64,000 nucleotides of DNA, taken from contig DAONQC010000005.1 of NCBI GenBank assembly GCA_035409945.1, forward strand, positions 57,075 through 121,074, written 5' to 3'. The notes beneath the pieces are model-generated. The model worked only from the letters and a program-made list of their open reading frames with translations, was not told the DNA's origin and ran no database searches. A program made the translations under genes and the position numbers. Origin of the DNA: Clostridia bacterium (GTDB lineage Bacteria > Bacillota > Clostridia > Christensenellales > DTU072). Shown here piece after piece: positions 11,820-61,749 of the stretch (position 1 is its first letter; each line of letters starts with the position of its first letter).

Positions 11820-12138
11820 TTCATATATTGACTGCTTGCTATTTATTCTCGCAGGCGCCTACTTTTCAGGTTGAATTTCGTTCGTCTGGACGGGGTTTAT
11901 TATCTTTTAATGGCCTTCCTCTATATTAGTTCATTTTACTTTGTCATCACTTATTTAGATATTGACTATTATATACTTCTACAAGTAGCCTATCTTTTCA
12001 GGTTGAGATTCATTTGTACAGACCTAGGTTTATTATATTCTATTGACTGTCTTCCATATGAGCTTTGTTTTAACCTTTCATCACTTATTCAGATACTGAC
12101 TGTTGTATATTTCTGCATACAAGCCATCCTTTTCAAGG
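11820..12138 (-). repeat. Three degenerate tandem units (about 133-134 bp period); the rightmost contains the end of the ABC transporter gene
   Basis: TCATCACTTATT at 11944 and 12078; ATA(T/C)TGACT at 11825, 11959 and 12093; CTTTTCAGGTTGA at 11862 and 11994. Confidence 0.85.
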
Positions 12139-13871
12139 AGGGTTTTATGTGTGCCTGTTTCTACGATACTTCCATCATCTATAACTAAAATCAAATCTGC
12201 GTTTACTATAGTTGATAGTCTATGTGCTATTACAAAAGCTGTCTTATCCTTCATAAGTTTATCCATAGCTTTTTGAATTAATAGTTCTGTTCTAGTGTCT
12301 ACATTAGATGTTGCTTCATCAAGAATGAGAAGTTCTCTAGCTGATAAAAATGCTCTTGCAATGGTAAGCAGCTGTTTTTGTCCACCCGATAAATTAGAAG
12401 TTCCTTCATCTAGTTCAGTATCATAGCCGTCTGGAAGTGCTTTAATAAAATGATCAGCATAAGCGTGATCACAAGCCTCCATAACTTCTTCTAAAGTTGC
12501 TCCGTCTTTTGCATATCTAACATTTTCAAACACAGTTCCTTTGAATAGCCAAGTATCTTGTAGCACCATAGAAAACAAGTCTCTTACGCTCTCTCTAGAC
12601 ACTGTATTAATGTCAATCCCATCTATATAAATATGCCCACTTTGAATGTCATAGAAACGCATAAGCAAATTAACTATAGTAGTTTTTCCGGCACCCGTTG
12701 GACCAACAATGGCTACCTTTTGCCCCTTTTTAATGTCAATATTTAGATTTTCAATAAGAGGTTTATCTTCGCTATAACTAAAGTATACATTTTCAAATTT
12801 AACGTTGCCTTCTATCTCTTTAGGCATATCTCCAGTGATAACTTCCATCTCTTCATAATCGAGCATCTCATACACTCTCTTAGCCGAAGCTTTAACTCTT
12901 TGCATACTAGCCATACCTTGCGCTATTTGTTCTAGAGGTTGAGTAAATTGTTTAGAGTATAACAAGATGGCAATAACCCCACCAAGTGATAAAAGTCCAT
13001 TGATTGCTAGATATCCACCTAGTAGACAAATTAACGCATAGGAGATACTACTTGTAAAAGTTACTATTGGCACCATCATCCCTGTTAGAATCTGACCCTT
13101 TTTAGATGACTCTGCAATTTCTTTAGTAATATCTGCACCTGCTTTTTCCCTATCGGGCTCTAGTCCATATGCTTTGACAGTAGCGTATCCTGAGTACGTC
13201 TCTTCAAGCTGGACATAATATTTTTCGACACATTCTCTTTCTTTAGAGAAATGCCTAGAACCTTTACCTCCCACTATTGCAGCTAAAGCCATAGATATCG
13301 GCACCATCCCAACTACTACAAGTGCTAGTTGCCAGTTGATTATAAACATCATAACCATCATGGCTAAAACTTGAAAAACTCCCATTATCAACATATCAAT
13401 TATTTCGTGGATGGTGTTTCCCATATCTGATACGTCTGAAGTAATTCGCGAAAGCATTTGACCAGGTTCAGTCTTATCTATATAACTAACTGGTAACATT
13501 TTAATCTTATCTGACATACGTATACGAATATTTGCTGTAAAATGTCTACTTACTGTATAATTCATAACCAGCATTTTTATATACGATAGTATCGCCTTTA
13601 TTACATACATTGAAAGTAATAAAAGGAGTGGTTGCATAACTTCTTTCATCAAGTCAAAAGTTTGTTCTGTTCCTTTAATAAGCCAGTATCTGTTTAAAGT
13701 GTCGACTACTTCTTTTGCAAAAATTGGCGCAATCATATTGGTAGCTATAACTAAAAAAGCTAAAACTGCACCCACCGTCAATCCAGATCGTATTTTTTTC
13801 GCTTCGAATATAAGCCTTAAAATAGTTCTATCTTTTTCTTTTTTAACACGAGGCTTTGTTGATTTATTCAT
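12081..13871 (-). CDS. Heterodimeric ABC exporter subunit (TM + ATPase; TM288-like, consensus site)
   Basis: GPTGAGKTT, LSGGQKQ, LILDEATS, IAHRLST; AGGAGG RBS favours the MNKSTK start at 13871 (ORF track starts at 13904). Confidence 0.9.
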   Translation of the reverse strand: MNKSTKPRVKKEKDRTILRLIFEAKKIRSGLTVGAVLAFLVIATNMIAPIFAKEVVDTLNRYWLIKGTEQTFDLMKEVMQPLLLLLSMYVIKAILSYIKMLVMNYTVSRHFTANIRIRMSDKIKMLPVSYIDKTEPGQMLSRITSDVSDMGNTIHEIIDMLIMGVFQVLAMMVMMFIINWQLALVVVGMVPISMALAAIVGGKGSRHFSKERECVEKYYVQLEETYSGYATVKAYGLEPDREKAGADITKEIAESSKKGQILTGMMVPIVTFTSSISYALICLLGGYLAINGLLSLGGVIAILLYSKQFTQPLEQIAQGMASMQRVKASAKRVYEMLDYEEMEVITGDMPKEIEGNVKFENVYFSYSEDKPLIENLNIDIKKGQKVAIVGPTGAGKTTIVNLLMRFYDIQSGHIYIDGIDINTVSRESVRDLFSMVLQDTWLFKGTVFENVRYAKDGATLEEVMEACDHAYADHFIKALPDGYDTELDEGTSNLSGGQKQLLTIARAFLSARELLILDEATSNVDTRTELLIQKAMDKLMKDKTAFVIAHRLSTIVNADLILVIDDGSIVETGTHKTLLEKDGLYAEIYNSQYLNK

Positions 13872-33304: not shown

Positions 33305-35929
33305 ATGTTTAAACATAAGAGTTTGGTCGTTATTGTAGTTATTTTACTTGTGGTTTTACTTACCACAACTTTATTTGCCTGCAATAAAAATAATGGTGGC
33401 GAAAATAGGACGCCTTCAAATGTTGTCATTGTCACCCCACCAGAACTTCCTAAAGATGAAGAGCCTCCTGCACCAAAATACGATGAGTCGCATCCTAGAC
33501 AAAATATGCTTGATTACTATGGACTTTCAGAGTCTGTTTCCCTAACTGAATCTTCTGAGAGCTTATCCGAACAAGCTATTAGACTTTCGATAATAAATAA
33601 CTTTTTTGATACACTGGAAAATACTGAAATTAATATAGAAAAACTAAGGGCGTTTTCAAAGTCAAACCTCTCTCAAATTGACCTATTTATATTCGACACA
33701 ACTCCAACAATTGAAATTGATCCTGCAATCGATATTGATTTAAATCTAACCATTGAGGAGTTTGTTGAAATCACGGGTGCTTACTTTAACGCAGTCAAAC
33801 AAACTGTAAATGATGAAACTCTTTTTGATGATGCTATTTTGAAAGGAAATGAGTATACAAGTAGCATCAATTTAGATGATAAGCCTTTGTATGATAGGTA
33901 CTCATCCCTTGTAGAATTAAACTCATATATTACCAAATTAAGATACCCTTCACCCATCACCGAGGAGAGATATAATCAAGCCATTCAGGCTCTAAATAAT
34001 GCCGGTTTGGAACCCGGAACTGCAGAATCTCCAGATGGGAGTTTTAACTCTGCTTATCTTTTAAATATAGTCAATGTGACTAGTGCTGCGCTTGGCGATG
34101 CAAAAACTAGTTTAGATAATTTACTTAAAGAGAAAGAAGACGTCACCACTGCAATTTCAATGCTAGAAAATTCTCTTGTTTTAGATAATACAAGTGATAT
34201 TCACTTTCCTACAATCTCTAGATGGGCAGATCTTTTTATGGACGGAGGAGCTAGCGTTAATAACCATACATTAGACTGGTTAAGAACTTATGTGTACGCC
34301 TTGCAAGACACCTATCCTAAGACTAAAATCGTGACACCTGAAACCACTAATGGCATCACTAGTTATTGGGTGGAATATTTGTATAATGAACAACTTTGCG
34401 CAAATAAATATTATGAAAACATTGCTTATCCTTACATTAGATATGCTGAAGCCATTTCTCTTAAAAACAACCCTACAATTCCCCCAACCAAATTCATTTT
34501 TGCAACTGGAACTATTGGCGAAGCTATAGAAAGCATGCTTACCGACTATTTAGCTTTGATGTACCATAAAATGCAAGTACAGAACTTCACTAAAAAATTA
34601 AAGACATTACCAAGTGTAGCGGCGTGGACTGAACAGGATATTTCAACATATGTGAATTTACAAACTAACTATTTAAATGCTCAAGTCAACCTGGTGAAGA
34701 ATAATCGCCCTGCTATACAAACATTAATTAATGGTTTAAGGTGCCTTATTCCAAATCACGATTACTACAACATGCGTGAATATTTATCAGGCTGGCTAGA
34801 AGATAGTGAAAAAATGTTACAAATTGAACCTATATCCGAACTCACTCAAACAATTTTCAATGCAGTTAATCCTGATTTAATATCTAGTCTTGTAAGATCT
34901 ATTTCAGAAACAGAAATTACTAATAGACGAAATTTTGGGATATATATGCCAAAAGCTCTAACCTCTATCAAAACATCCTTACCTGAAGTAAGTGAACTCA
35001 CCGATATTTTACTTGACTATACGCATGGACTAACAGGACATGCGAAATATAGAATGATAGAAATAGTAGATGGTATTTTCAGCAGCGAAAACCCTGACCT
35101 ACAATCTCAAAAAGAGGCTTTCGACTCCTATCAACAAGTACTCAAATCCATAGAGCAATTTGTGTTATCAGATGATTTGTCATATATGGAATTTGAATAC
35201 AATACGATAACTGAAAAGCTAGGCGATAACATTACTGCTACAATTTCTAACTTCGAAAATCGGAGCGAAGTTAACACATTTTATAACGAAGTCATACGCT
35301 ACTTAAATACGCTGGTAGACGAAGATACTGATGACATCAATGTTTACTTAAAAAGTGCAATTACTGAAACAGCACAACTATTTGATAATTTAATTTTTGC
35401 TGGTACCATAATGGATACTCTTGCTTCATATGAGCCATACAGCGATGATGATGAAGTGATAAATAACGTAAATGACACTATCGAACAACTTTTGAATCAT
35501 TATATTGAAATAGGAATATTTGCATCTCTACGCAAAGAAGATAGTTTTGAAACCAAAGAAGCAGTTGCTCTTGAATGGTTTAATTCCTTCGTAAACTCAG
35601 ATTACATAAGCGGACAAGACAATTTGCGATTTTTAAATAAAGCTGGTGGCTTTGCCTTTTTGCCAAGCGCTACCGAACAAACCTACGTTATATCGCCAGA
35701 CGCAACAGGGAAAATCGAGATTACAATTACAAAAGATTCTCTTTCACCTAACAGTTCCTTTAGACTTTACAATAGCAATTTTAGATTATCTTTTTCAGGG
35801 GAAGAGCGCGATGATAAGTATATTATAACTGCCCCAGCTTATGCTGGTACACTTTACTACCTTTCCTTTACCGCAAATTCCGGTGGCAATATCTTTTCCT
35901 CATTTACAGGTGTAAAATATAAAGATTAA
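33305..35929 (+). CDS. Hypothetical lipoprotein, largely helical, with a C-terminal beta-sandwich (PPC-like) domain
   Basis: Signal peptide with LFAC lipobox and Pro-rich linker; end segment YVISPDATGKIEITIT...AGTLYYLSF; ORF track starts at 33296, ATG at 33305. Confidence 0.75.
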   Translation: MFKHKSLVVIVVILLVVLLTTTLFACNKNNGGENRTPSNVVIVTPPELPKDEEPPAPKYDESHPRQNMLDYYGLSESVSLTESSESLSEQAIRLSIINNFFDTLENTEINIEKLRAFSKSNLSQIDLFIFDTTPTIEIDPAIDIDLNLTIEEFVEITGAYFNAVKQTVNDETLFDDAILKGNEYTSSINLDDKPLYDRYSSLVELNSYITKLRYPSPITEERYNQAIQALNNAGLEPGTAESPDGSFNSAYLLNIVNVTSAALGDAKTSLDNLLKEKEDVTTAISMLENSLVLDNTSDIHFPTISRWADLFMDGGASVNNHTLDWLRTYVYALQDTYPKTKIVTPETTNGITSYWVEYLYNEQLCANKYYENIAYPYIRYAEAISLKNNPTIPPTKFIFATGTIGEAIESMLTDYLALMYHKMQVQNFTKKLKTLPSVAAWTEQDISTYVNLQTNYLNAQVNLVKNNRPAIQTLINGLRCLIPNHDYYNMREYLSGWLEDSEKMLQIEPISELTQTIFNAVNPDLISSLVRSISETEITNRRNFGIYMPKALTSIKTSLPEVSELTDILLDYTHGLTGHAKYRMIEIVDGIFSSENPDLQSQKEAFDSYQQVLKSIEQFVLSDDLSYMEFEYNTITEKLGDNITATISNFENRSEVNTFYNEVIRYLNTLVDEDTDDINVYLKSAITETAQLFDNLIFAGTIMDTLASYEPYSDDDEVINNVNDTIEQLLNHYIEIGIFASLRKEDSFETKEAVALEWFNSFVNSDYISGQDNLRFLNKAGGFAFLPSATEQTYVISPDATGKIEITITKDSLSPNSSFRLYNSNFRLSFSGEERDDKYIITAPAYAGTLYYLSFTANSGGNIFSSFTGVKYKD

Positions 35930-36085
35930 TTTTAAGCATGCATTCCCTAACAAAGAACGTAAGTTGTATAGCAACACCTGACTACATTTCTTTTACAATT
36001 GGTGGAAATATATTTTCTTTATTTACGAGTATAGAATATAAAGATTAACTTTTTAAGCGTATTCCATAACAAATAAATTTAAATT
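35856..36085 (+). repeat. Tandem diverged copy of the lipoprotein gene 3' end plus following sequence (about 119-125 bp offset)
   Basis: AATATAAAGATTAA ends at 35929 and 36048; copy reads DYISFTIGGNIFSLFTSIEYKD* versus gene YYLSFTANSGGNIFSSFTGVKYKD*. Confidence 0.9.
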
Positions 36086-43048: not shown

Positions 43049-43307
43049 ACGAGATGTAATTCCATCTTCATTTGCTTTAAGGCGCCAGGTTTATATACCT
43101 ACCTTGGTTGCGTATAACGATCCTAATTCCTAGTAAGTAGTCTAAATCAGCCGTATTTTCAGCCACTTTATATTGTTTAAGACGAGGATTCCATCTTCGT
43201 TTACTCTAAGCGACAGGTTTCTATACATACCTCGGTTGCGTATAACGATCCTAATTCCTAGTAAGCAACCTAAATCAACAATACTTTTAGCAGTTGTATT
43301 GTTTAAG
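43049..43307. repeat. Two-copy intergenic tandem repeat, about 129-bp unit
   Basis: ATTCCATCTTC at 43059 and 43188; identical core GGTTGCGTATAACGATCCTAATTCCTAGTAAG in both; both end TATTGTTTAAG. Confidence 0.92.
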
Positions 43308-46360: not shown

Positions 46361-47836
46361 TTATTTTCCATATTTTTCGTCTAGCATGCGTTTATTTTGT
46401 GCGGTTCGATTAATAGATTCTCTACTAGATGGGTGCTTAAAGTTTTTAGCAAAAGCGTATAAACTCTTCAGCCTTAGTAATCCTCTTGGGTTACAATCTT
46501 TTATGGGAGCATATTTAATATTTAACTTATCAAATATTGAAAGTATTGGACCTAGTCGCTTTACAAAATCCTTATAAGTACCACCATCATTCCAAGCCTT
46601 TTCTGCGACTGCAATTAGCCTTGGATAGGTCATATACTCCACTCTATCTACAGTTTTCACATATTCAGTCCAAAGAGGTGACTCTAACCCTATAATATTT
46701 TCTGCTATAAACCCATCTTTTTGGAAATTATAGTTATATGTTTTACGAAGAGGTGTCATTCCGTATGGGTAATCTAGATAATAGTGAAAGAAAGGCGATA
46801 TTAGCCCCTTGCTACCACCTGCAACATGTCTAACTGCAGCAGCTTTACTTTTCTTAGTTTGTGTCCAATAATGAACTGCTATGCTTTTTCTTGCATTTTC
46901 GCCTATCATTCCATCATTCCAATTTAATACTTTTTTGCCAGCTTTTTCGCAATATGCTGCCACTCTCGACATGAAATGTGCTTGAAGCTCATCTTCATCT
47001 TTAAGTCCATTATCCTTTATAGTCTTTTGACAATCTGGACAATTTATCCATTTAATCCTTAAAGCCTCATCGCCACCTAAATGAATATATTCAAATGGGA
47101 ATAATTCAAACACCTCGTCAAGCACATCAAACAAAAATTGATATGATGTTTCCTTCCCTGCACAACACACATCTTCAAATATGCCAAAAGCTTCTTTAAC
47201 TTCACAACCATTCCCATCACAAGATAAAAGAGGGTAAGCTGCGATTGCTGCTGAAAAGTGCCCTGGTATATCAATTTCTGGCATAACATCTATATGTTTG
47301 CTCTTTGCATACGCTACAACATCTTTAATTTCTTCTTTTGTGTAAAAACCTTCTACTGGAACTCCATCTCCTCTAGTTTGTTTTCTTTTAGCTCCTACTT
47401 CAGTTAATAGAGGATATTTGTCAATTTGAATTCTCCAGCCTTGGTCTTCTGTCAAATGCCAATGGAAAACATTAAGCTTTAAGTAGCTTATTGCATCAAT
47501 TTGTTTCTTTATTTCATCTACAGTAAAAAAATGCCTACAAGTATCTAGCATATATCCTCTATATGCAAACTTTGGCTCATCTATAATTTCTACATTTGGG
47601 ATAGATCCATTTTCAGCAAGTTGTTTAAATGTAACCAAGGCATAAAAATGTCCTTTTTCTGTACTTGCTATAGATGTAACTCCATCTTCATTTATTAAAA
47701 GTTTATATCCTTCGCTTTTAATACTGTCGTCATACACTTTAGAAATGCCCGACTCTTTATAACTAAAAGTTTTGTCGGAAATTATCTTTATCTCCTGTGG
47801 TAATGGCACTACTTTAATCACAACTAACCTCCACAT
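46361..47836 (-). CDS. Beta-N-acetylhexosaminidase, GH20
   Basis: YRGYMLDTCRHFF, FHWHLTEDQGWR, PEIDIPGH, HLGGDE catalytic pair; no signal peptide. Confidence 0.92.
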   Translation of the reverse strand: MWRLVVIKVVPLPQEIKIISDKTFSYKESGISKVYDDSIKSEGYKLLINEDGVTSIASTEKGHFYALVTFKQLAENGSIPNVEIIDEPKFAYRGYMLDTCRHFFTVDEIKKQIDAISYLKLNVFHWHLTEDQGWRIQIDKYPLLTEVGAKRKQTRGDGVPVEGFYTKEEIKDVVAYAKSKHIDVMPEIDIPGHFSAAIAAYPLLSCDGNGCEVKEAFGIFEDVCCAGKETSYQFLFDVLDEVFELFPFEYIHLGGDEALRIKWINCPDCQKTIKDNGLKDEDELQAHFMSRVAAYCEKAGKKVLNWNDGMIGENARKSIAVHYWTQTKKSKAAAVRHVAGGSKGLISPFFHYYLDYPYGMTPLRKTYNYNFQKDGFIAENIIGLESPLWTEYVKTVDRVEYMTYPRLIAVAEKAWNDGGTYKDFVKRLGPILSIFDKLNIKYAPIKDCNPRGLLRLKSLYAFAKNFKHPSSRESINRTAQNKRMLDEKYGK

Positions 47837-48102
47837 AATAGAAACTTAAAAAAGCTTCTAATTTTACAAAATTACACAGCTTGTCTACAAAATCTTATAC
47901 ATCCCCCGAGCATATAACCGGAGTTTTTGTTTTTTTCTCGCTTTGCGATTACTTGTTCGCCTTTGGTTCTTGAAAACCCTCAATCCCTATCTGCTAAAGC
48001 CTTACATCTATACCGTTTTTTCAAACCTTGTATATTATAAGTTTCAACTGTCTGTTACTAACACTACCCGTTAAAGCCTTAATTGATATGCTCTAGTTAT
48101 CT

Positions 48103-48840
48103 TTATTCGGTAATGATACCTATAAATACTTCTCTTACGTCAGGTAATCTATAGTCTTTTTCTCCATCTGCTGACTCTATGTTTGTTATATATAGGGTTC
48201 CATCTTTTTGTGATACGGTTGTCTGAACTTCAAATAATGTATCTCCGTTTTGTATAGATTTAAATCCATCGCCAGAACATAATAAAACTCTAAACTTCCT
48301 GTCAGCTAGAGAATAAAGGGCGAAATCAAAGCCAGTTATTTTAGGCACAATACTATCAATTGTTGCACTTGTTGTGCAAGATATCGTCATCATTATTGAA
48401 TTCATCTCTTTTCCTTCGGGAAGTCCACTTGCCGTTATTTTGATAGTAGAGGTATTTCCTTCTTGGGAGGTCCTAGCTGCATTTACTCTAAGGGGTGTAT
48501 CAACAACTTTGTCGTGCACAACAGAATATAACCAATCGATAGATGCGGAGGCGTACGTTATAGTCATAATCGCATTTTCTTTAGTTGTAGCACTATTAAA
48601 ACCTTTGACCATTTCTGGTGTCAGTTGAAATGTCTCTATACCAGTACGAAAATGTGCATATACTTTTATATCAGAATACTTAATTTGCTCATCTAACGCG
48701 TATATATCTTTAAGCCCTTCTATCTCAATTTTCTTAGCTATTTTTTTACTGTTATCGCAGGATGAAAGAACCATGATTGAAGTCAAAATCAACATGCTAA
48801 TCAATACTAGCGATAATATTTTTTTAATACTCTTCCTCAT
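48103..48840 (-). CDS. Lipoprotein with an Ig-like (Big_3-type) domain and a C-terminal cohesin-like domain
   Basis: LSSC lipobox; LTPEMVKGFNS...MTITY Ig-like pattern; EGNTSTIKIT.SGLP...MMTIS...FRVLL...IQNGDTLFEV resembles cohesin strand order (by eye). Confidence 0.65.
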   Translation of the reverse strand: MRKSIKKILSLVLISMLILTSIMVLSSCDNSKKIAKKIEIEGLKDIYALDEQIKYSDIKVYAHFRTGIETFQLTPEMVKGFNSATTKENAIMTITYASASIDWLYSVVHDKVVDTPLRVNAARTSQEGNTSTIKITASGLPEGKEMNSIMMTISCTTSATIDSIVPKITGFDFALYSLADRKFRVLLCSGDGFKSIQNGDTLFEVQTTVSQKDGTLYITNIESADGEKDYRLPDVREVFIGIITE

Positions 48841-49225
48841 GCTTCCTCTCTTTCGTATGCATACTCAGCAAGATTTCTTGCAAACAACACTAAATCCAAT
48901 TTAAGTTACTTTACCGTCTCCATTTAAATCCATAACATATTTTTATTTTCACTTCCAAGTAGTATTTGAGCCATTTCCTCTATTTTCATGTGGGCTGTGA
49001 CGCTTTCTTGCAAACAACACTATGTTACTTTACCGCCCCTATTTAAATCCATAACAGATTTTTCTCTTTTGAGTAATGTCTCAGCGGTTTTTATGTTTTT
49101 ATGTAGACAGTGCAAACTTTCTTGCAAACAACACTAAATCTAATTGTGTTACTTTACCGTCCCCATTTAAATCCATAACATATTTTTTATTTTCACTTCT
49201 AAGTAGTATTTGTGCCATTTCTTCC
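48837..49225 (-). repeat. Three copies of the dockerin-coding 3' end of the protease gene (one functional, two decayed)
   Basis: TTTCTTGCAAACAACACTA at 48874, 49004 and 49118; GTTACTTTACCG and ATTTAAATCCATAACA in all three. Confidence 0.95.
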
Positions 49226-52200
49226 AAGTCTGCAGATGTACTGATGCCATCACCATTTGCGTCTCCAAACACATTAACCTCGAAGTCATATATCACAACG
49301 TCGTCTGCATTTTTAAATACTACTCTATCTCCCGTTCTAAGCGCTCTAGAACCCTCCCCAGTGCTGACACTCGAACCATTTTTATCTAGCATATGTTTTG
49401 TTAAATAATCAGCATTGGAGAACAAGTTAAATGCTTCCGAAACGAAAACACCCTCATCTTTTATAGCTACTACTCTATTTTGTTTATCTACAGTAATGCC
49501 AGTTTTTGTCTTATAGCTAAGCACACTCTCCCCATCTTTGCTTACATATACACCAAACGAAGCAACAGCAGCATCTATGTTTTGTCCAGTTATAGTTACT
49601 GTTTGAGACCCAACTTGAGTGGGGTTATAATTGATTTTTAGATTTGCTGCTTTTATAGCCGCTCCCTCTAAAGATAACTTTCTACTGCTACGATATTCAA
49701 CCTCAAGTTTTAATCCTAAAATATTCAAAGCTTGTCCGTATTGATACTCTCTCTGGTTAGGAGTCTTAACAATAGTTATGTTATCTTCTTTATCTATGAC
49801 TTCGACAGATATAGCCTTTGTAACAGTAAGCGTTACTATCTTCGGATTTTCTGGCGACACAGTAATCATTATGTCATTTGGGGTTCTTCGTGTCGGCGTT
49901 ACTGTCACTACATCTTTATTATTTACTCTTGTTACTGTTATATATCCTGGCTCGCCAGCACCATTTAAGGTCATTTCTTCTCTATAAGTAAATACAACAT
50001 TCTGAGTCCCTATTGCCGTCTTATCGTAGTTGTGTGAATATCTGACTGCACCTATTCTATTATTTTCACCATTTGCATATGTTAGTCTCACCTCTTGAAT
50101 TGCTAAAGATTCGTTATATAAGTATGTAAACTTACTTAAATTCACATCCAATCTAGATGGATTATTCCTAACATAACAAGTTACTTGTTGACTCCAAACA
50201 ACCTCTTGACCTATTCGATACTGTAAAGTTATTGCTTGGCCATTAGCATCAACGTTTGCTCCATTCATTTCGGGGTACACTTTGTAATTTGGCGAACCTG
50301 CATCAAAATACTCTTCTTCTTTTGCCCCTGATTCATATTCAATCTCGAATTTTGCTGACTGTGGATTAAATTCTTCTCCGTACCAGTAATCTATTCTAGG
50401 CTCTTCTATCATGCGTATTTGCTTAAATACATCCAAAACTGTTAGTATGAACTCTTTTGAGCCTGTATAATCAGCTTCTGCATATTCTACAGTGACCTTT
50501 ATCTCACCAAGTGTAGTATTGTAATTTGTTCCTTCTATTATAATACCTTCTTTTTCTCTACCTATGAACACACCATTTTTCTCATACTTAATGGAGTACG
50601 TGCTAGGACTAACTAAAACTTTTCCCCTTAAAGTCATCTCTACATATACGTCAATAGTCATTTTCCCATTGTATGAAATGGTTTGATTTTCTATTGTATG
50701 TATATATTTAGGGGTATCAATAATCTTAATTTTAGTGTATTTCCACTCATTTAAATATCTCATACCAAGGGGCTGTACTACATTAATCAGTTCGGGATCA
50801 TACACCATTTCCATTGGTGTTCTTATATCTATTCCACCAGCTTGCAACGATCTTCTAACTCTTAAATCTTGAGGCTTGGGGTCTCCTGTAAGTGGCGTAT
50901 ATTTAAAAGTAGTTATGTCTTCCTCACCCAAGAGAATATAGTTACTAGGATTAGCAGGGTCTTTCTTGGAAATTCCCCAGGAAGAGGATTGTGATAGACC
51001 TCTTAAAGTAATTTGTAGCCTACTTAATTCATATTCCTCTATTAACACACCATCTTCATACCTTTGAATGTATATTACTAAATCAGATATTTGTTCGGTA
51101 CCGGGATTAGATGCATCATATTCTAAATACTTATTAAAATTCTCCATTCTGAACCAGATATCAGGAGTAGTTTCTTTTGCTCCAATCTTAAATATTTTGC
51201 CTTGATTTTGTACAAACTCTAAATCAATGCTAAAATCCTTTGTAACTTCAAAGTAATGTATATACCCAGGTTGATCTTTATACTTGTATGTGACTTCACC
51301 TTCAAGCAGTACCTCTATGTTAACTGGAGTAGTTGTTAGTTCATTACCTGTTGCGGTGTCGTTGTATTTAACAACTACGCTTTGATATCCTTCAATGGCT
51401 TTGTTATATCCTTCGATTGTTAAGTTGGGTGAATCAAAGTCTTCTAACCTTTCATTACCAGAACGCATGCTCAAAACAACTTGTTCAGTTACACTTATGT
51501 CTTCCCCAAAAGGATATGCAAGTATTCTTGGTGAAAACGATATGTTTTCTACCCAGTCCGAAACAGTTATGTTATGTTTAAGTTCATGTATATCGTTTGT
51601 AAATACTGGATCTGGAACTCTATATGTTAGCGTTTGTCTGCCTAGCTTTTCGCTATTATATCCTTGGAAAGAGGTAGGTTGGACATCATGGTTAGTCGAA
51701 GTATTATCGCTATATGTTATCTTTATTTTTCCCCTTTCACCTGGCGCAATTGATAATGCTTCTCCTAATAAATAATTAGACTTTGGAATTTCAGTAAACT
51801 CCACAAATGTTACATACTTACTAACTATGACACTAACAACAGCACTTGCGCCTTGGTATGTAATAGCTGCATTCTTTGTACCAGTAGTTGAAGTATCGCA
51901 AGTTATCATATCGGGCGTTACTGGTATAACTACTGGAGCTTCTGCACCTATCGTTACTGTCATTATCAAAGAGTCAGGATTGATGGATTCATTTTGTTTA
52001 ACTTTTAATGCTATGGGGTTTGATGGTGTTTCACCCACCTTTTTTACTGTTATGCTAACACCAGCGCTTACGACTGTAACAGCACAAGTATCAGTATATT
52101 CCACATCATCAATCGTAATAGACACCGTAATTATCGCTTCACCAACTGACTGCGCAGTTATTCTCCCTGTCACACTATCAACGGATACGATATCTGGGGC

Positions 52201-55200
52201 ACTTGACGTAAATGTGGGAGAAACGGTTCCTACATTAGTCGCATCAAATGGAATATAACTATACTCTAATTGTACCGATTTAGAAGTGGCTATTCTAACA
52301 CTCTCTTGCGATATTGCTATGCCAGTAAGAGGCTTATCCTCATACGTGGTAATGGTAATACTCTTAGATATACTAGTTCCATTTATTCTTGCTGTAATTT
52401 CAGCCGTTCCTACAGAAAGCGCAGTTAACTTAGCTGTTTTGTGGGTTGTCCCCTCTCCTAACATGTCAACTCTTATTACAGATTCATTTGACGATGTATA
52501 TATAACTCTTTGGTAAGTTGTGCTAGCAGGACTTATATCCACGGATATAGTGCTTGTAGTTCCAACCTTTATTCTACGCCCATCGAGAGGTACAAGATCT
52601 GGATTACTTACGCTGTTTGCGCGTACATAGGTTCCTACTGGATATATTAAATTGACCATTGGATTATTTGTTCCAAACTGTGAAACTCCAATACCAGTAA
52701 ACTCAACAACGCCATCCTCTCTCAAAAATACATTGTGATGTTCGGATGCCGCCATGTCAATTATGTCGTATAGCCCGCTGACTTCGCATTGAGATGAAGA
52801 TGTATCTCCTATCGCTTTCACAGTGCCATTTGGCATTAGTGCTAGTAAGTGTCTTGACCCTGCAACTATGTTAGTAGCGCCTGTTAAACTAGCTAATGCA
52901 TCCGATAGCGGGATACCCCCTCCTACATTAAATTCACCATATATTCCTACTGTGCCATCTGTCCTTAGTACCGCACTGAAACTATCTCCTGCTGTTATCT
53001 TTGCAACAGAGGTTTCTTGTAAAAGCCCAGATTGTCTTTCTAAATCACCAGTAGCAAACACCTTACCTGTGTTGTCTAGACCTACTACATGCCTTGCGCC
53101 AGCAGCTATACTGACTATATTTTTCCATCCACTCACGTTTAGTTGGTAAAAGTCGTTTAAGCCCATTGATAGTACAGTCCCATCATTTGCTAGTCCGTAT
53201 GATGTATAACTACCCGCGACCACTTGTTTTACGTTATACCAACTATCTACTACCGTTTCGCCATAGAAATTATCTCCAAGTGCTGTTACTGTCATGTCTT
53301 TTTTGAGTGCAAGTAGATGTTTTCTTCCTACAGCAATGTCTAAAACGTTTGTTTTTCCACCTACTTCCCAAATGCCAGTTGTAATATCACCAGATACAAC
53401 AACTGTACCTCCATTATTTATGCCCACACTAATTCGCGGTCCTGCAAAAACTTTAGCTTGAATAGTATCGGAAGCAATAATTTGGCTCCATATAGAGGAA
53501 TTGCCCTCTACGTTGTAAGTACCTAACACTTTTTGTTTACCTGCTGCATTTATTACAGTTACTCTTAATTTTGTAGGCATCGCCGATTCGCTTTCAAAAG
53601 GTTCGGTATAGAATACACTAGGTGGCTGCATATTCCCCTTACTATTTACTACAAAAGGAGCATCAAAAACTGTTTGACCTAATTCTGTGTAACTATTTTT
53701 AAATTCACCTAAATTCAAATTACTTGTATTAATAACACTATACGCATTGTCTAAAAGTTCAAGTTTTACATTCGCTAGATATTGTAAATTGATATCTGCA
53801 AATCTAATCTTCGCTTGGACACCACTCCAATCAGAACCATTATATAATGCAATATTTTCAGCTGTAATTTTTCCATCAAATGCATTATCTGGGATTGCCA
53901 ATGTTCCAGTAGGTAAACTAATTCTAAACATAGCAAGGTCACTTCCTACAGAAAGTGCTTCTATTTCTATCTTGCTATTTACACCATCGCTGTAAAATAT
54001 GTTTGTATATTCATATTTAGTTGTCGATGTCCCACTTCCAACGCGGGAAAAATGTGCATTATGAGGAGATAAATTAGCTCGAGCTACATCTTTTGCCGAG
54101 TTGTTATACACATTGTTAGTGGTGGAAATCATATCTACTTTAGGACGAAACACATGTACTTCATCTGGATAAAGACTAGACTGGAATCTAGCATCTCTAT
54201 TTCCTACACTACTGCTAAAATCATGGGGCTCTCTTACTCTATACACAATAAGTCCAGTACCAGGCGCTGCAGCATCATAACTTGAAGAGATGGTAGGATT
54301 TCTATATTCCACCATAAAATATTCGTTGGGTCTTTCGTTTAACGTAATTCTATATGATAAAACTTCAGTTTTAGGAGTTATTGCTACTGGTTTTAAAGAA
54401 TATACGCCACTATCTACCACATCAACTATCTGACTACTAAGGATACCTCCAACATACTTATCTCTTGTGTATGTCAACATATACTGTGGTGTATTGGTAT
54501 TTTGAGCCATCAAATCCCATCTGCCGACAGGTACATAGTCATAGTTATAATGGTAAAAATCTGGAGCGCCTAAAACGTGCCCCATTTCGTGACATAAAAT
54601 CCCAGTGTTTATAGATGTTGAAAAATTGAAGGAATAGTCACCTACTTTAGCTCCACCAAGAGTACTATACCCGCTTCCGTCGATACCATCTAAATTCCAG
54701 CTATGTGGCCAAAGAAGTCCGCCCCAAGTTGATTCATTACTCCCACATATTAAAAAGCTAACACTATCTACATATCCATCGTTATTGATATCGACATTTT
54801 TGCCAGTTAAATCAAATTTGTTTTTTGTAGCATTTATTGCGCCTGTAAGAAGCTCACTTTCTTTTTGTCTTCTTGTCGCTGTGTTTGAATCCTTAATGTT
54901 ATAGTCTTGTCTATTTCCACCATTATGCACATACACAGCCCCAGATTCTCGGGGTAAGATACTGTTTATAGTAACATCATGGTTGCTCATTACCTCATAG
55001 TAGTTTCTAAGGGAATTATTTACACCATTAAAATACATATCAAAATTTTCGATTGCAGCATTAACTGTTGAATCTAGAGTATCATTGAATTTAATGAGTA
55101 TTACAAAATTAACGATAGTTCTTTTACCTGTTGCGCCGGCAAATAATGGTTGTTGGGGCACTTCTTCAGTAATTTCTTCATTATCATCACCATATGTGGT

Positions 55201-55641
55201 TATAAATCCACCATTCGTACTGGCCCTATCTTCCTTACTCAAAAGTTCGGGATTTAGTGATAAGTTTATATCCTCTACAGTAATGGTTTCAACTTTTGCC
55301 TCTCCTTCTAATACAGAAACACCAGTCGATATAACTTTCCCATTATTATCTAGCGTTGCATATGTTAAAGAATCATCATCTCTAAGTAAAACGTTACCAT
55401 TTTCATCGTGATAATATCTAAATTTTTCATCGCCACTTTCTTTAAAGTTAATCTTCTCTCCATTAACTTCCATACTTCTTTCGAAAGTGTACTTGAATAA
55501 ATCTCCCTGTTTTGTAAAATCCTCATAACCTCTATCCGATCCATTACGGATAAAAGCGAACACACCCACCGCAAAAACTGATAACACAAATATCGTTATC
55601 AAAGCGTATGTCATAAATTTTTTAGTGTTAAATTTCTTCAT
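49099..55641 (-). CDS. Secreted multidomain M6-family (immune inhibitor A-like) metalloprotease with RCC1-like repeats, Big_2/Big_3 Ig-like domains and C-terminal dockerin
   Basis: Signal peptide; DINNDGYVD, LWPHSW, HEMGHVLGAPDFY, WDLMA, EYFMVEYR; RCC1 repeats such as IAVGRKHLLALKKDMTVTALGDN; terminal GDANGDGISTSAD...DLNGDGKVTQLD. Confidence 0.88.
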   Translation of the reverse strand: MKKFNTKKFMTYALITIFVLSVFAVGVFAFIRNGSDRGYEDFTKQGDLFKYTFERSMEVNGEKINFKESGDEKFRYYHDENGNVLLRDDDSLTYATLDNNGKVISTGVSVLEGEAKVETITVEDINLSLNPELLSKEDRASTNGGFITTYGDDNEEITEEVPQQPLFAGATGKRTIVNFVILIKFNDTLDSTVNAAIENFDMYFNGVNNSLRNYYEVMSNHDVTINSILPRESGAVYVHNGGNRQDYNIKDSNTATRRQKESELLTGAINATKNKFDLTGKNVDINNDGYVDSVSFLICGSNESTWGGLLWPHSWNLDGIDGSGYSTLGGAKVGDYSFNFSTSINTGILCHEMGHVLGAPDFYHYNYDYVPVGRWDLMAQNTNTPQYMLTYTRDKYVGGILSSQIVDVVDSGVYSLKPVAITPKTEVLSYRITLNERPNEYFMVEYRNPTISSSYDAAAPGTGLIVYRVREPHDFSSSVGNRDARFQSSLYPDEVHVFRPKVDMISTTNNVYNNSAKDVARANLSPHNAHFSRVGSGTSTTKYEYTNIFYSDGVNSKIEIEALSVGSDLAMFRISLPTGTLAIPDNAFDGKITAENIALYNGSDWSGVQAKIRFADINLQYLANVKLELLDNAYSVINTSNLNLGEFKNSYTELGQTVFDAPFVVNSKGNMQPPSVFYTEPFESESAMPTKLRVTVINAAGKQKVLGTYNVEGNSSIWSQIIASDTIQAKVFAGPRISVGINNGGTVVVSGDITTGIWEVGGKTNVLDIAVGRKHLLALKKDMTVTALGDNFYGETVVDSWYNVKQVVAGSYTSYGLANDGTVLSMGLNDFYQLNVSGWKNIVSIAAGARHVVGLDNTGKVFATGDLERQSGLLQETSVAKITAGDSFSAVLRTDGTVGIYGEFNVGGGIPLSDALASLTGATNIVAGSRHLLALMPNGTVKAIGDTSSSQCEVSGLYDIIDMAASEHHNVFLREDGVVEFTGIGVSQFGTNNPMVNLIYPVGTYVRANSVSNPDLVPLDGRRIKVGTTSTISVDISPASTTYQRVIYTSSNESVIRVDMLGEGTTHKTAKLTALSVGTAEITARINGTSISKSITITTYEDKPLTGIAISQESVRIATSKSVQLEYSYIPFDATNVGTVSPTFTSSAPDIVSVDSVTGRITAQSVGEAIITVSITIDDVEYTDTCAVTVVSAGVSITVKKVGETPSNPIALKVKQNESINPDSLIMTVTIGAEAPVVIPVTPDMITCDTSTTGTKNAAITYQGASAVVSVIVSKYVTFVEFTEIPKSNYLLGEALSIAPGERGKIKITYSDNTSTNHDVQPTSFQGYNSEKLGRQTLTYRVPDPVFTNDIHELKHNITVSDWVENISFSPRILAYPFGEDISVTEQVVLSMRSGNERLEDFDSPNLTIEGYNKAIEGYQSVVVKYNDTATGNELTTTPVNIEVLLEGEVTYKYKDQPGYIHYFEVTKDFSIDLEFVQNQGKIFKIGAKETTPDIWFRMENFNKYLEYDASNPGTEQISDLVIYIQRYEDGVLIEEYELSRLQITLRGLSQSSSWGISKKDPANPSNYILLGEEDITTFKYTPLTGDPKPQDLRVRRSLQAGGIDIRTPMEMVYDPELINVVQPLGMRYLNEWKYTKIKIIDTPKYIHTIENQTISYNGKMTIDVYVEMTLRGKVLVSPSTYSIKYEKNGVFIGREKEGIIIEGTNYNTTLGEIKVTVEYAEADYTGSKEFILTVLDVFKQIRMIEEPRIDYWYGEEFNPQSAKFEIEYESGAKEEEYFDAGSPNYKVYPEMNGANVDANGQAITLQYRIGQEVVWSQQVTCYVRNNPSRLDVNLSKFTYLYNESLAIQEVRLTYANGENNRIGAVRYSHNYDKTAIGTQNVVFTYREEMTLNGAGEPGYITVTRVNNKDVVTVTPTRRTPNDIMITVSPENPKIVTLTVTKAISVEVIDKEDNITIVKTPNQREYQYGQALNILGLKLEVEYRSSRKLSLEGAAIKAANLKINYNPTQVGSQTVTITGQNIDAAVASFGVYVSKDGESVLSYKTKTGITVDKQNRVVAIKDEGVFVSEAFNLFSNADYLTKHMLDKNGSSVSTGEGSRALRTGDRVVFKNADDVVIYDFEVNVFGDANGDGISTSADLEEMAQILLRSENKKYVMDLNGDGKVTQLDLVLFARKFALST

Positions 55642-61425: not shown

Positions 61426-61749
61426 ATGAAACTTGAAGATTTACAAAGAAGTTTAGACTTGAGAAAATGGCATGATAGCGAAAATAATGCTATGGATATG
61501 TGCAGGCACTATGATTACTGTGTATTTTGTAGATTTGAAGCTGACTTTCCATGTGCAAGAGCATATAACCGCTTTGAGCAATCAAAGAAAAAAGAGGCAG
61601 CCGAAGCTAAACCAGCAGCAGCTAAAAAAGCTACAACTACGGCTAAAAAGCCAGCAGCTAAAAAGGCTACAACATGCGCAAAAAAACCCGCAGCAAAAAA
61701 AGCCACAACAACAGCTAAGAAAGCTACAACCACAGCAGCAAAAAAATAA
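61426..61749 (+). CDS. Small protein: Cys4 putative metal-binding head plus histone-H1-like Lys/Ala-rich tail
   Basis: C-x5-C-x2-C-x7-C then repeated KKPAAKKATT units; AAGGAGG RBS; own promoter and terminator. Confidence 0.8.
   Translation: MKLEDLQRSLDLRKWHDSENNAMDMCRHYDYCVFCRFEADFPCARAYNRFEQSKKKEAAEAKPAAAKKATTTAKKPAAKKATTCAKKPAAKKATTTAKKATTTAAKK

What the first reader, a model, noticed from the sequence alone, without database searches (positions are those of the whole stretch)
48837..49225. Triplicated dockerin end; the distal relic still carries an ATGA stop/start overlap with the cohesin-like gene
Seen: the distal copy (48837-48980, minus) reads EEMAQILLGSENK-[1-bp loss]-YVMDLNGDGKVT-[disrupted codon]-LDLVLFARNLAEYAYEREEA*, and its TGA overlaps the ATG of the lipoprotein gene (GC-ATGA). 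Against the live end (EEMAQILLRSENKKYVMDLNGDGKVTQLDLVLFARKFALST*) about six differences are synonymous (GAA/GAG, GCA/GCT twice, GGG/GGA, ACA/ACT, TTA/TTG). A middle copy (49003-49063) has a 10-bp deletion. Inference: the distal copy is the ancestral, coupled C-terminus, displaced twice. This gives direction to the process and affects the second dockerin repeat, which helps set cohesin binding.
Basis: partly seen in the sequence, partly recalled or inferred. Interest (0 to 1): 0.7.

Follow-up and report, generated by a model that had tools for sequence, protein, structure and literature searches.

The report
Dead echoes of a dockerin end
The last 130 bases of a giant surface-protease gene are followed by two broken copies of themselves, one case of a pattern found behind about one gene in ten of this bacterium; the working protein keeps the same end as in its sister species, so the copies are likely harmless duplication scars and not a displaced ancestral tail.

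Summary
The triplication is real, identical in four DNA assemblies, and described accurately. The sister species ends FARKFALSV* with a 26-nt gap, and 0 of 27 orthologue C-termini carry the EYAYEREEA tail. That tail is read-through of the old spacer after the relic lost its stop. The live dockerin, including its predicted cohesin-binding face, is unaffected. The locus is one of 111 gene-end echoes among 1,163 genes, against 8 at 5' ends and 5 of 409 in the sister species. The scan noted this class before, on another piece of this genome (e1-2391406). Best reading: neutral local tandem duplication. A modest genome-wide excess of synonymous differences (d4/d0 2.15, CI 1.87-2.46) leaves allele displacement open. 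The downstream lipoprotein has a cohesin fold and is predicted to anchor the protease.

The parts
49099..55641 (-). Giant exported protein, 2180 aa: M6-family metallopeptidase domain (aa 209-380), RCC1-like repeats, Ig-like Big_2 and Big_3 domains, C-terminal dockerin
   Evidence: ORF; Pfam
49117..49266 (-). Live dockerin (aa 2126-2175) with two DxNxDG calcium-loop motifs; the only Dockerin_1 match in the genome
   Evidence: PF00404 33.3 bits, cut-off 22.9; alignment of 23; genome search
49092..49224 (-). Copy 1 (live): EEMAQ...FARKFALST, stop 49099-49101, plus about 7 nt of spacer; this is the duplicated unit, about 133 bp
   Evidence: same end as G004
48981..49091 (-). Copy 2 (middle relic): core 3 of 58 sites different from live, 10-bp deletion, live-type tail with stop TGA; 5' part 11 of 29 different, with a 6-bp deletion
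48862..48980 (-). Copy 3 (distal relic), coding-derived part: 8 of 105 sites different from live up to FAR, -1 and +1 indels, nonsense codon, stop codon lost by deletion
48841..48861 (-). Ancestral intergenic spacer with the purine-rich ribosome-binding site of the lipoprotein gene; read in frame it gives the AYEREEA 'tail'
   Evidence: aligns with the non-coding spacer of G004, 2 of 5000 shuffles as good
48837..48840 (-). ATGA: lipoprotein start codon overlapped by the TGA that closes the relic's last frame
   Evidence: sequence; the same frame relation holds in G004 behind an intact stop
48103..48840 (-). Lipoprotein gene, 245 aa: signal helix and Cys28 (invariant in 23 orthologues), Ig-like domain (about aa 37-108), cohesin-fold domain (about aa 113-243, window 48112-48504)
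46361..47836 (-). GH20 hexosaminidase gene, third gene of the cluster; a similar ORF follows the lipoprotein in most relatives' loci shown
   Evidence: Pfam; ORF starts (output cut, not counted)

Best explanation
The three copies are a head-to-tail triplication of the last 133 bases of the dockerin gene and its stop, likely made by local duplication during replication or repair and likely without function. Shown: the upstream copy is the working end and has the ancestral sequence type; the two downstream copies are broken; the EYAYEREEA tail is old spacer read in frame after the relic's stop was deleted; the event post-dates the split from the sister species; the same thing has happened behind about 10% of this genome's genes and almost never at gene starts. 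Inferred: the first duplication came from slippage or template switching over about 130 bp. The third copy came from unequal crossing-over, since both junctions fall at about the same place and the middle copy is distal-like at one 5' site and live-like in its 3' part. The relics were dead from the start and decay neutrally. Copies across stop codons persist because they leave the gene whole without creating a decoy ribosome start, while copies across gene starts are removed by selection. The only likely effect here is 244 more untranslated bases before a lipoprotein gene that was already uncoupled.
For: Orthologue ends and gaps. Spacer homology. Live vs distal differ at 8 of 105 sites, G004 vs either at 22 of about 105; 0 of the 3 congeners and 0 of 23 other family loci have the dockerin end repeated. 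The locus's synonymous share (6 of 10; 5 of 9) is compatible with a constrained live copy plus a neutral relic, P 0.18-0.29. Genome-wide, 111 of 1163 genes have a 3' echo against 8 at 5' ends, shuffled-partner controls 1 and 0. G004: 5 of 409 against 113 of 1157 by the same method, P 1.5e-10. Of 46 echo genes with a G004 orthologue end, 40 stop within 2 codons of the same place; non-synonymous differences side with the live copy 345 times and the echo 32 times (58 neither); synonymous ones split 87:82 (51 neither). The spectrum is C>T and G>A rich with frequent indels, and shows no excess of conservative changes (392 seen, 388 expected). Among 19 echoes that lost their stop, 2 read through into the next start, 1 by ATGA; the base rate for an open frame ending on ATGA is about 6% (crude gene calls).
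Against: Synonymous sites differ more than the dead-on-arrival model predicts: d4/d0 2.14 against 1.57-1.67 in simulations (0 of 40 replicates reached it), and 4.9 in the 13 youngest echoes. No echo is above 97% identical. The 14:1 excess of 3' over 5' copies, and the shortage of purely intergenic copies against random placement (50 vs 76 seen; 123,852 vs 53,196 possible positions), are explained only by an untested selection argument. The middle copy should be younger than the distal one yet is more decayed at its edges (Fisher P 0.0002, boundaries chosen after the fact). No causal gene was found: the PolC remnant, PolA 5' nuclease and MutS are shared with echo-poor G004.
Confidence: 0.68

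Rival explanations
1. Allele displacement: each echo began as a working gene end. Incoming DNA from a related strain (about 0.15 synonymous changes per site away) recombined into the gene, and its end was joined in without removing the resident end, which was pushed downstream and decayed. The distal copy would then be a former live end, though with a stop and the FALSx tail, not EREEA.
For: A simulation with a 0.15 synonymous head start fits all age bins (ratios 4.05, 2.41, 2.15, 1.87, 2.13 against observed 4.94, 2.32, 2.26, 1.83, 2.14). K2P d4/d0 is 2.15; 0.6% of bootstraps fall at or below 1.8. No near-identical echoes exist. The symmetric 87:82 polarisation disfavours a simply faster live lineage. 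At this locus 5 of 7 substitutions up to FAR are synonymous.
Against: The absolute ceiling of 2.0 lies inside the bootstrap interval (17% at or below it). A plain count against the ceiling gives z 2.3 for the 13 youngest, 1.2 for the 21 youngest (leave-one-out 0.7-1.7), and -2.0 overall without saturation correction. A constant 1.8-2.5-fold faster live branch fits the overall ratio nearly as well. The head start was fitted to these data. ComEC was not found in 0 of 5 genomes searched. There is no foreign cargo between the copies here. The 3' bias is not explained.
Confidence: 0.2
2. One reading: the distal copy is the ancestral, translationally coupled C-terminus ending EYAYEREEA over the ATG, displaced twice by new ends.
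For: 19 of 23 orthologues outside the genus overlap the next start, 8 by ATGA, often with acidic tails. G004's frame read past its stop also ends on the ATGA. The distal copy keeps some G004-like states.
Against: The stop and the bases after it are shared by G004, the live copy and the middle copy. 0 of 3 congeners overlap. 0 of 27 orthologue C-termini have the tail. The tail is homologous to non-coding DNA of G004. It would need loss of the stop in this lineage and later regain from a donor.
Confidence: 0.05
3. The duplications are made preferentially at gene ends by a transcription-linked process, for example R-loops or collisions in ribosome-free RNA just after stop codons, and are neutral afterwards.
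For: The bias follows gene direction, not replication direction (95 of 975 leading, 16 of 188 lagging, P 0.69). Intergenic-only copies are rarer than random placement predicts. The unit size is narrow: 64 of 111 offsets lie at 100-139 nt.
Against: The copied coding length is roughly flat from 60 to 120 nt, so breakpoints are not tied to the stop. No terminator-like site lies at this unit's end. An RT gene is present in G000 but was not found in the two g7 genomes, which also carry such repeats. The spectrum is not A-specific. No direct test was possible.
Confidence: 0.15

Closest known systems
Tandem-repeat genome plasticity of Ehrlichia ruminantium (PMC10710844, passages read; PMC3287509, passages read; the primary papers PMC545511 and PMC1428390 were not held)
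   Same: Many tandem repeats in non-coding DNA that lengthen the spacers, attributed to slipped-strand mispairing; a lineage-specific excess.
   Different: Here the unit is a gene's own 3' end, about 100-140 bp, 65-97% identical and decaying, with no copy-number difference in four assemblies. Whether the Ehrlichia repeats favour gene ends could not be checked.
Integrative elements that regenerate the 3' end of their target gene (recalled from general knowledge; also named in scan notes e1-3030841 and e1-4159201)
   Same: A spare, slightly different gene end is left downstream of an intact gene.
   Different: No cargo or integrase gene lies between the copies; about 110 unrelated genes are affected.
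Diversity-generating retroelement TR/VR pairs (features recalled)
   Same: A roughly 100-130 bp repeat at the 3' end of a gene for a surface protein; an RT gene exists in the genome.
   Different: Differences are not adenine-specific (A changes least, 0.144 per site against 0.305 for C); the copies carry indels and stops; the RT lies about 100 kb away on the contig.
Non-cellulosomal and minimal cohesin-dockerin pairs: Clostridium perfringens cohesin modules (PDB 2jh2, 2vo8), Archaeoglobus cohesin (2xdh), Cellulosilyticum lentocellum ClcC/ClcD two-gene operon (PMC13487519, passages read)
   Same: One cohesin and one dockerin in adjacent genes, with asymmetric dockerin repeats.
   Different: Here the cohesin is on a lipoprotein (lipobox, Ig-like domain, cohesin) and the dockerin ends a 2,100-residue M6 peptidase/RCC1/Ig protein, not a cellulase. 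No description was found in searches.

Membership tests
Translationally coupled gene pair (ATGA overlap) | The overlapping stop closes a translated upstream gene | tested here: not met
   The live gene stops 258 nt upstream; the relic's last frame is cut off by two stops and two indels; translation itself was not measured.
Translationally coupled gene pair (ATGA overlap) | Overlap conserved in the nearest relatives | tested here: not met
   0 of 3 congeners (gaps 26, 65, 66 nt); 19 of 23 more distant family members do overlap.
Neutral partial tandem duplication | Head-to-tail copies, absent from relatives, with disabling changes on the copy's branch | tested here: met
   genome-wide 345:32 non-synonymous polarisation.
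Neutral partial tandem duplication | Synonymous to non-synonymous divergence no higher than a constrained live copy plus a neutral copy allows | tested here: inconclusive
   Met at this locus (P 0.18-0.29); exceeded genome-wide against simulations but not against the ceiling of 2.0.
E. ruminantium-type tandem-repeat plasticity | Many non-coding tandem repeats genome-wide | tested here: met
   133 arrays not wholly inside ORFs in 1.97 Mb, 6.7 per 100 kb.
E. ruminantium-type tandem-repeat plasticity | Actively variable copy number between isolates | tested here: inconclusive
   This locus is identical in 4 of 4 DNA runs, with no joints; contigs drop rare variants and the runs may not be independent.
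Diversity-generating retroelement | Adenine-specific mismatches between template and variable repeat | tested here: not met
   A is the least changed base; at this locus the differences are spread over all bases.
Integrative element regenerating a gene's 3' end | Cargo or integrase between the two gene-end copies | tested here: not met
   The copies abut, with about 7 nt of native spacer between them.
Dockerin (PF00404) | Profile match and two calcium-binding loops | tested here: met
   33.3 bits, cut-off 22.9; loop aspartates invariant or nearly so in 23 orthologues.
Dockerin (PF00404) | Hydroxyl pair kept in both repeats (dual binding mode, per PMC13487519 passage) | tested here: not met
   Repeat 1 has S-A and repeat 2 has Q-L at these positions (position numbering recalled); a single mode is inferred.
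Cohesin | Cohesin beta-sandwich fold | tested here: met
   Model pLDDT 92.6; the six best Foldseek matches are cohesins, E 1.8e-7 to 2.1e-6, target TM 0.72-0.76.
Cohesin | Pfam Cohesin PF00963 sequence match | tested here: not met
   No match in the protein or in 0 of 5 genomes.
Cohesin | Binds the dockerin | not testable with these tools
   Predicted only: score 0.65, best control 0.01; the mark was reached by 116 of 157 solved and 2 of 215 mismatched pairs; runs agree in at least 75% of contacts; partner pLDDT 57-58; a pass may come from likeness to solved complexes.
Cellulosome | Scaffoldin with two or more cohesins and a dockerin-fused glycoside hydrolase (PMC13487519 passage) | tested here: not met
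   One dockerin in the genome, on a peptidase; one cohesin-fold domain in the lipoprotein, one match in the genome.

The most novel reading that the evidence does not exclude
This lineage has an undescribed genome-wide process that swaps in the last 100-130 bases of a gene from a slightly diverged allele and leaves the old end stacked behind the stop codon, at more than 100 unrelated genes, with no integrase, cargo or competence channel. The dockerin triplet would record two such events, and the echoes would be a fossil record of earlier alleles.
Probability: 0.2. Interest if true: 0.75.

Novelty: new variant of a known kind. Interest (0 to 1): 0.38.

Why it matters
The locus itself changes nothing in the protein. 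It matters as a well-polarised example of a lineage-specific burst of 100-140-bp duplications that survive almost only across stop codons (111 vs 8). Bacteria are usually dominated by deletion, so this burst asks for either a strong cost of decoy start sites or a transcription-linked source of duplications; both can be tested. If the synonymous excess reflects allele displacement, it would be a new route of gene-end replacement. Separately, the gene pair that hosts the repeat, a cohesin lipoprotein beside a giant dockerin-bearing M6 protease, is found across this family (lipoprotein matches in 33 of 36 family genomes) and suggests a one-enzyme surface anchor that I did not find described.

Tried and rejected
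Assembly artefact: rejected; the copies are diverged and identical in 4 of 4 DNA runs, though these may be source samples. Collapsed or recombinant variants: none in contigs; only Logan contigs were served, so rare variants could not be seen; X19 and X20 did not cover the repeat. Copy from another dockerin gene: no other locus in the genome. Closer relatives: the genus search held only 5 genomes; a protein scan of metagenome contigs found nothing; a pattern scan gave 2 loci, both 99.9% identical to G004; a scan of genome contigs with the lipoprotein alignment could not be seeded. Compensating frameshifts keeping the relic translatable: rejected, two stops intervene. Promoter or terminator in the relics: no excess over shuffles and none in the repeat. 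DGR: rejected. PolC remnant as the cause: present in 5 of 5 genomes, including echo-poor G004. Loss of PolA 5' nuclease or MutS: present in 5 of 5. A second MutS-family gene was not found in G000 or G004 alike, so it does not discriminate. Natural transformation: ComEC not found in 0 of 5 (genomes 89-96% complete). RNA contigs: one contig of X18 spans 48486-49208, which shows RNA-library cover, not a single transcript; no listed X17 piece covers 48743-49158. VIA-align fold comparisons could not be run. Rows left out of the junction count: L026, L028 and L030 (longer proteins matching only the N-terminal part) and L004 (contig break; G001 read from L044). Literature searches found no description of a genome-wide 3'-end bias; PMC4534519 and PMC9012536 (passages) added nothing on it. 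No supplements were read.

Full report
1. Observation. On the minus strand a 2180-aa gene (49099-55641) ends in a dockerin; 258 nt later a 245-aa lipoprotein gene starts at 48840. The gap holds two decayed copies of the gene's end (TRF period 119, 2.8 copies, score 336; alignments). Four non-synonymous differences should be added. The two indels in the distal copy cancel, but two stops lie between them. The unit runs from EEMAQ to about 7 nt past the stop, about 133 bp. In 4 of 4 DNA runs a single contig spans the repeat with no difference and no joint; all four are flagged as possible sources, and contigs drop rare variants.

2. The orthologue test. The lipoprotein has matches in 33 of 36 family genomes and 3 of 4 congeners. 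The closest relative, G004 (78% identity for the large protein, dS 1.44), has one copy, ending DLVLFARKFALSV*, then 26 nt, then ATG. Two metagenome contigs of that species agree. G002 and G001 end ARKINGN* and ARQINGN*, with 65 and 66 nt gaps. Of 29 orthologue sequences retrieved (15 of the 36 members of the largest cluster were listed), 27 reach the C-terminus and none has the EYAYEREEA tail. The last 21 nt of the distal copy align with G004's non-coding spacer (2 of 5000 shuffles), and the alignment places a deletion over the stop codon. The live tail and the middle tail both keep the stop and the bases after it (0 of 5000 shuffles each). So FALS(T/V)* is the ancestral end for this lineage, and EREEA is the ribosome-binding spacer read in frame. 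No relative has the dockerin end repeated, and live vs distal differ at 8 of 105 sites against 22 for either vs G004, so the event is younger than the split.

3. Outside the genus, 19 of 23 orthologues overlap the next start codon (8 by ATGA), 3 have a gap and 1 is fused. G004's frame read past its stop also ends on the ATGA; G002 has the same frame relation with a stop in between; G001 does not. Coupling is therefore likely ancestral for the family and was likely lost by tail truncation at the base of the genus. The overlap in the relic needs only this inherited geometry and a net loss of 12 nt. The base rate for an open frame ending on ATGA is about 6% (crude gene calls); among 19 echoes that lost their stop, 2 read into the next start and 1 by ATGA. 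The distal copy keeps a few G004-like states (GAG, GGA, GTA), as the last copy of any tandem duplication keeps the old flank. Six synonymous changes in ten is what a constrained live copy and a neutral relic can give (P 0.18).

4. History of the three copies (inferred). Both junctions fall within about 3 nt of the same place, which points to a second event by unequal crossing-over in an existing two-copy array. The middle copy shares one 5' state with the distal copy (GCT) and its 3' states with the live copy (GGG, ACA, tail and stop), as such a crossover predicts. Unexplained: its 5' part is far more decayed (11 of 29) than its core (3 of 58; P 0.0002 with boundaries chosen afterwards), and it aligns about as well with the distal tail (40 of 5000 shuffles) as with the live 5' part (204 of 5000). 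The order of events is not resolved.

5. The locus is one of a class. A self-comparison of the genome gave 162 local direct-repeat hits. I saw this before consulting the scan's notes, which hold the same pattern from another piece of this genome (e1-2391406) and similar cases in other genomes. Merged, there are 158 arrays: 76 across gene 3' ends, 7 across 5' ends, 50 intergenic and 25 inside ORFs (own simple gene calls). A symmetric test finds echoes behind 111 of 1163 genes and before 8; partner-shuffled controls give 1 and 0; 64 of 111 offsets are 100-139 nt; leading and lagging genes are hit alike (P 0.69). In 794 kb of G004 (about half its genome) 5 of 409 genes have one, against 113 of 1157. 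Smaller samples gave 2 of 84 (G002), 1 of 27 (genus g7) and 0 of 130 in five other genomes. For 46 echo genes with a G004 orthologue end, 40 stop at the same codon within 2, one orthologue has a borderline echo, and amino-acid-changing differences lie on the echo (345:32, 58 neither). The live copy is thus the ancestral-type end genome-wide, as at this locus. Random placement predicts equal numbers of 3' and 5' copies and more intergenic ones, so the bias is real and needs selection or a transcription-linked source.

6. The synonymous excess. If echoes are dead from birth, four-fold sites should differ at most twice as much as zero-fold sites. Observed: 323 of 1014 against 940 of 5499, ratio 2.14, and 4.9 in the 13 youngest (19 of 100 against 24 of 557). 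Simulations through the same pipeline give 1.57-1.67; a 0.15 synonymous head start fits every bin, and a 1.8-2.5-fold faster live branch fits the total. Against this: the bootstrap interval 1.87-2.46 includes 2.0; a plain count against the ceiling gives z 2.3, 1.2, 1.1 and -3.4 from young to old without saturation correction; conservative changes are not enriched; synonymous differences polarise 87:82; the simulation assumes a stationary, context-free mutation matrix. I rate allele displacement at about 0.2. ComEC was not found (0 of 5). The PolC remnant noted earlier (e1-2417191) is confirmed as a partial match in about 510-540-aa frames in 5 of 5 genomes, including G004, so it is not sufficient.

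7. The host genes. The lipoprotein has an invariant Cys28, an Ig-like domain and a C-terminal beta-sandwich (pLDDT 92.6) whose six best structural matches are cohesins; the Pfam cohesin model misses it. A predicted complex of that domain with the dockerin scores 0.65 against a best control of 0.01. The mark was reached by 116 of 157 solved and 2 of 215 mismatched pairs; the runs agree in at least 75% of contacts; partner pLDDT is 57-58. Cohesin-dockerin complexes are solved, so the pass may come from likeness. But the live copy differs from G004 at only one of the ten helix-3 contact residues (L48V). In G005 the two genes form one 2367-aa frame holding peptidase motif, dockerin, Ig-like and cohesin parts; whether this is a true fusion or a lost stop was not tested. 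NCBI labels members of G004's cluster Christensenellales bacterium; this species occurs in sludge, wastewater and soil-labelled metagenomes.

8. Verdict. A real but most likely functionless triplication. The proposed ancestral coupled terminus is refuted by the nearest orthologues. The nearest known kind is slippage-driven tandem-repeat expansion as in Ehrlichia ruminantium (passages of PMC10710844 and PMC3287509; primary papers not held); the strong 3'-end bias is the new aspect, and searches found no description of it. Interest 0.38, carried by the genome-wide class and the conserved cohesin-lipoprotein/protease pair, not by the ATGA overlap.

Noticed in passing
whole genome G000; in the window 11857-12135, 35849-36076: Gene 3'-end echoes behind 111 of 1163 genes against 8 at 5' ends, unit mostly 100-140 bp; two further cases lie in this window, behind genes 12081-13871(-) and 33305-35929(+).
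   Followed up: yes
window 43059-43307: Intergenic tandem duplication (offset 129, 83% identity) starting about 10 nt after the stop of the P-type ATPase-like gene.
   Followed up: partly
window 46361-55641 and loci L002-L029: Conserved three-gene cluster: giant M6-peptidase/RCC1/Ig/dockerin protein, lipoprotein with Ig-like and cohesin-fold domains, GH20 hexosaminidase; likely a single-enzyme surface anchor; not found described.
   Followed up: partly
L048 (G005:C21:2420-9523, minus): Protease-dockerin and lipoprotein read as one 2367-aa frame, with a hydrophobic linker and the old signal peptide between them; true fusion or lost stop not tested.
   Followed up: no
L023, L029 (genus g7): Tandem repeats downstream of the lipoprotein gene, and a degenerate second dockerin loop in L023; Dockerin_1 not matched in G024. 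A second lineage with local duplications.
   Followed up: partly
G000:C1:93007-93531: PolC family match only to a part of the model in a 537-aa frame; below the cut-off in 5 of 5 genomes searched, as scan note e1-2417191 reported.
   Followed up: partly
G000, G004: Only one MutS_V match each, against two in G002, G010 and G024; the roughly 800-aa second gene (likely MutS2) was not found in the two sister species.
   Followed up: no
G000:C5:2098-2712: Reverse transcriptase domain in a 403-aa frame, also in G002, not found in G004, G010 or G024; type not determined.
   Followed up: no
G000, G004, G002, G010, G024: ComEC competence domain not found in 0 of 5 genomes, although it rings in 10 of 14 controls.
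   Followed up: no
window 61426-61749: 107-aa ORF with a Cys-rich N-terminus and a Lys/Ala-rich repeat tail (TRF period 36 at 61606-61724), histone-H1-like in composition.
   Followed up: no
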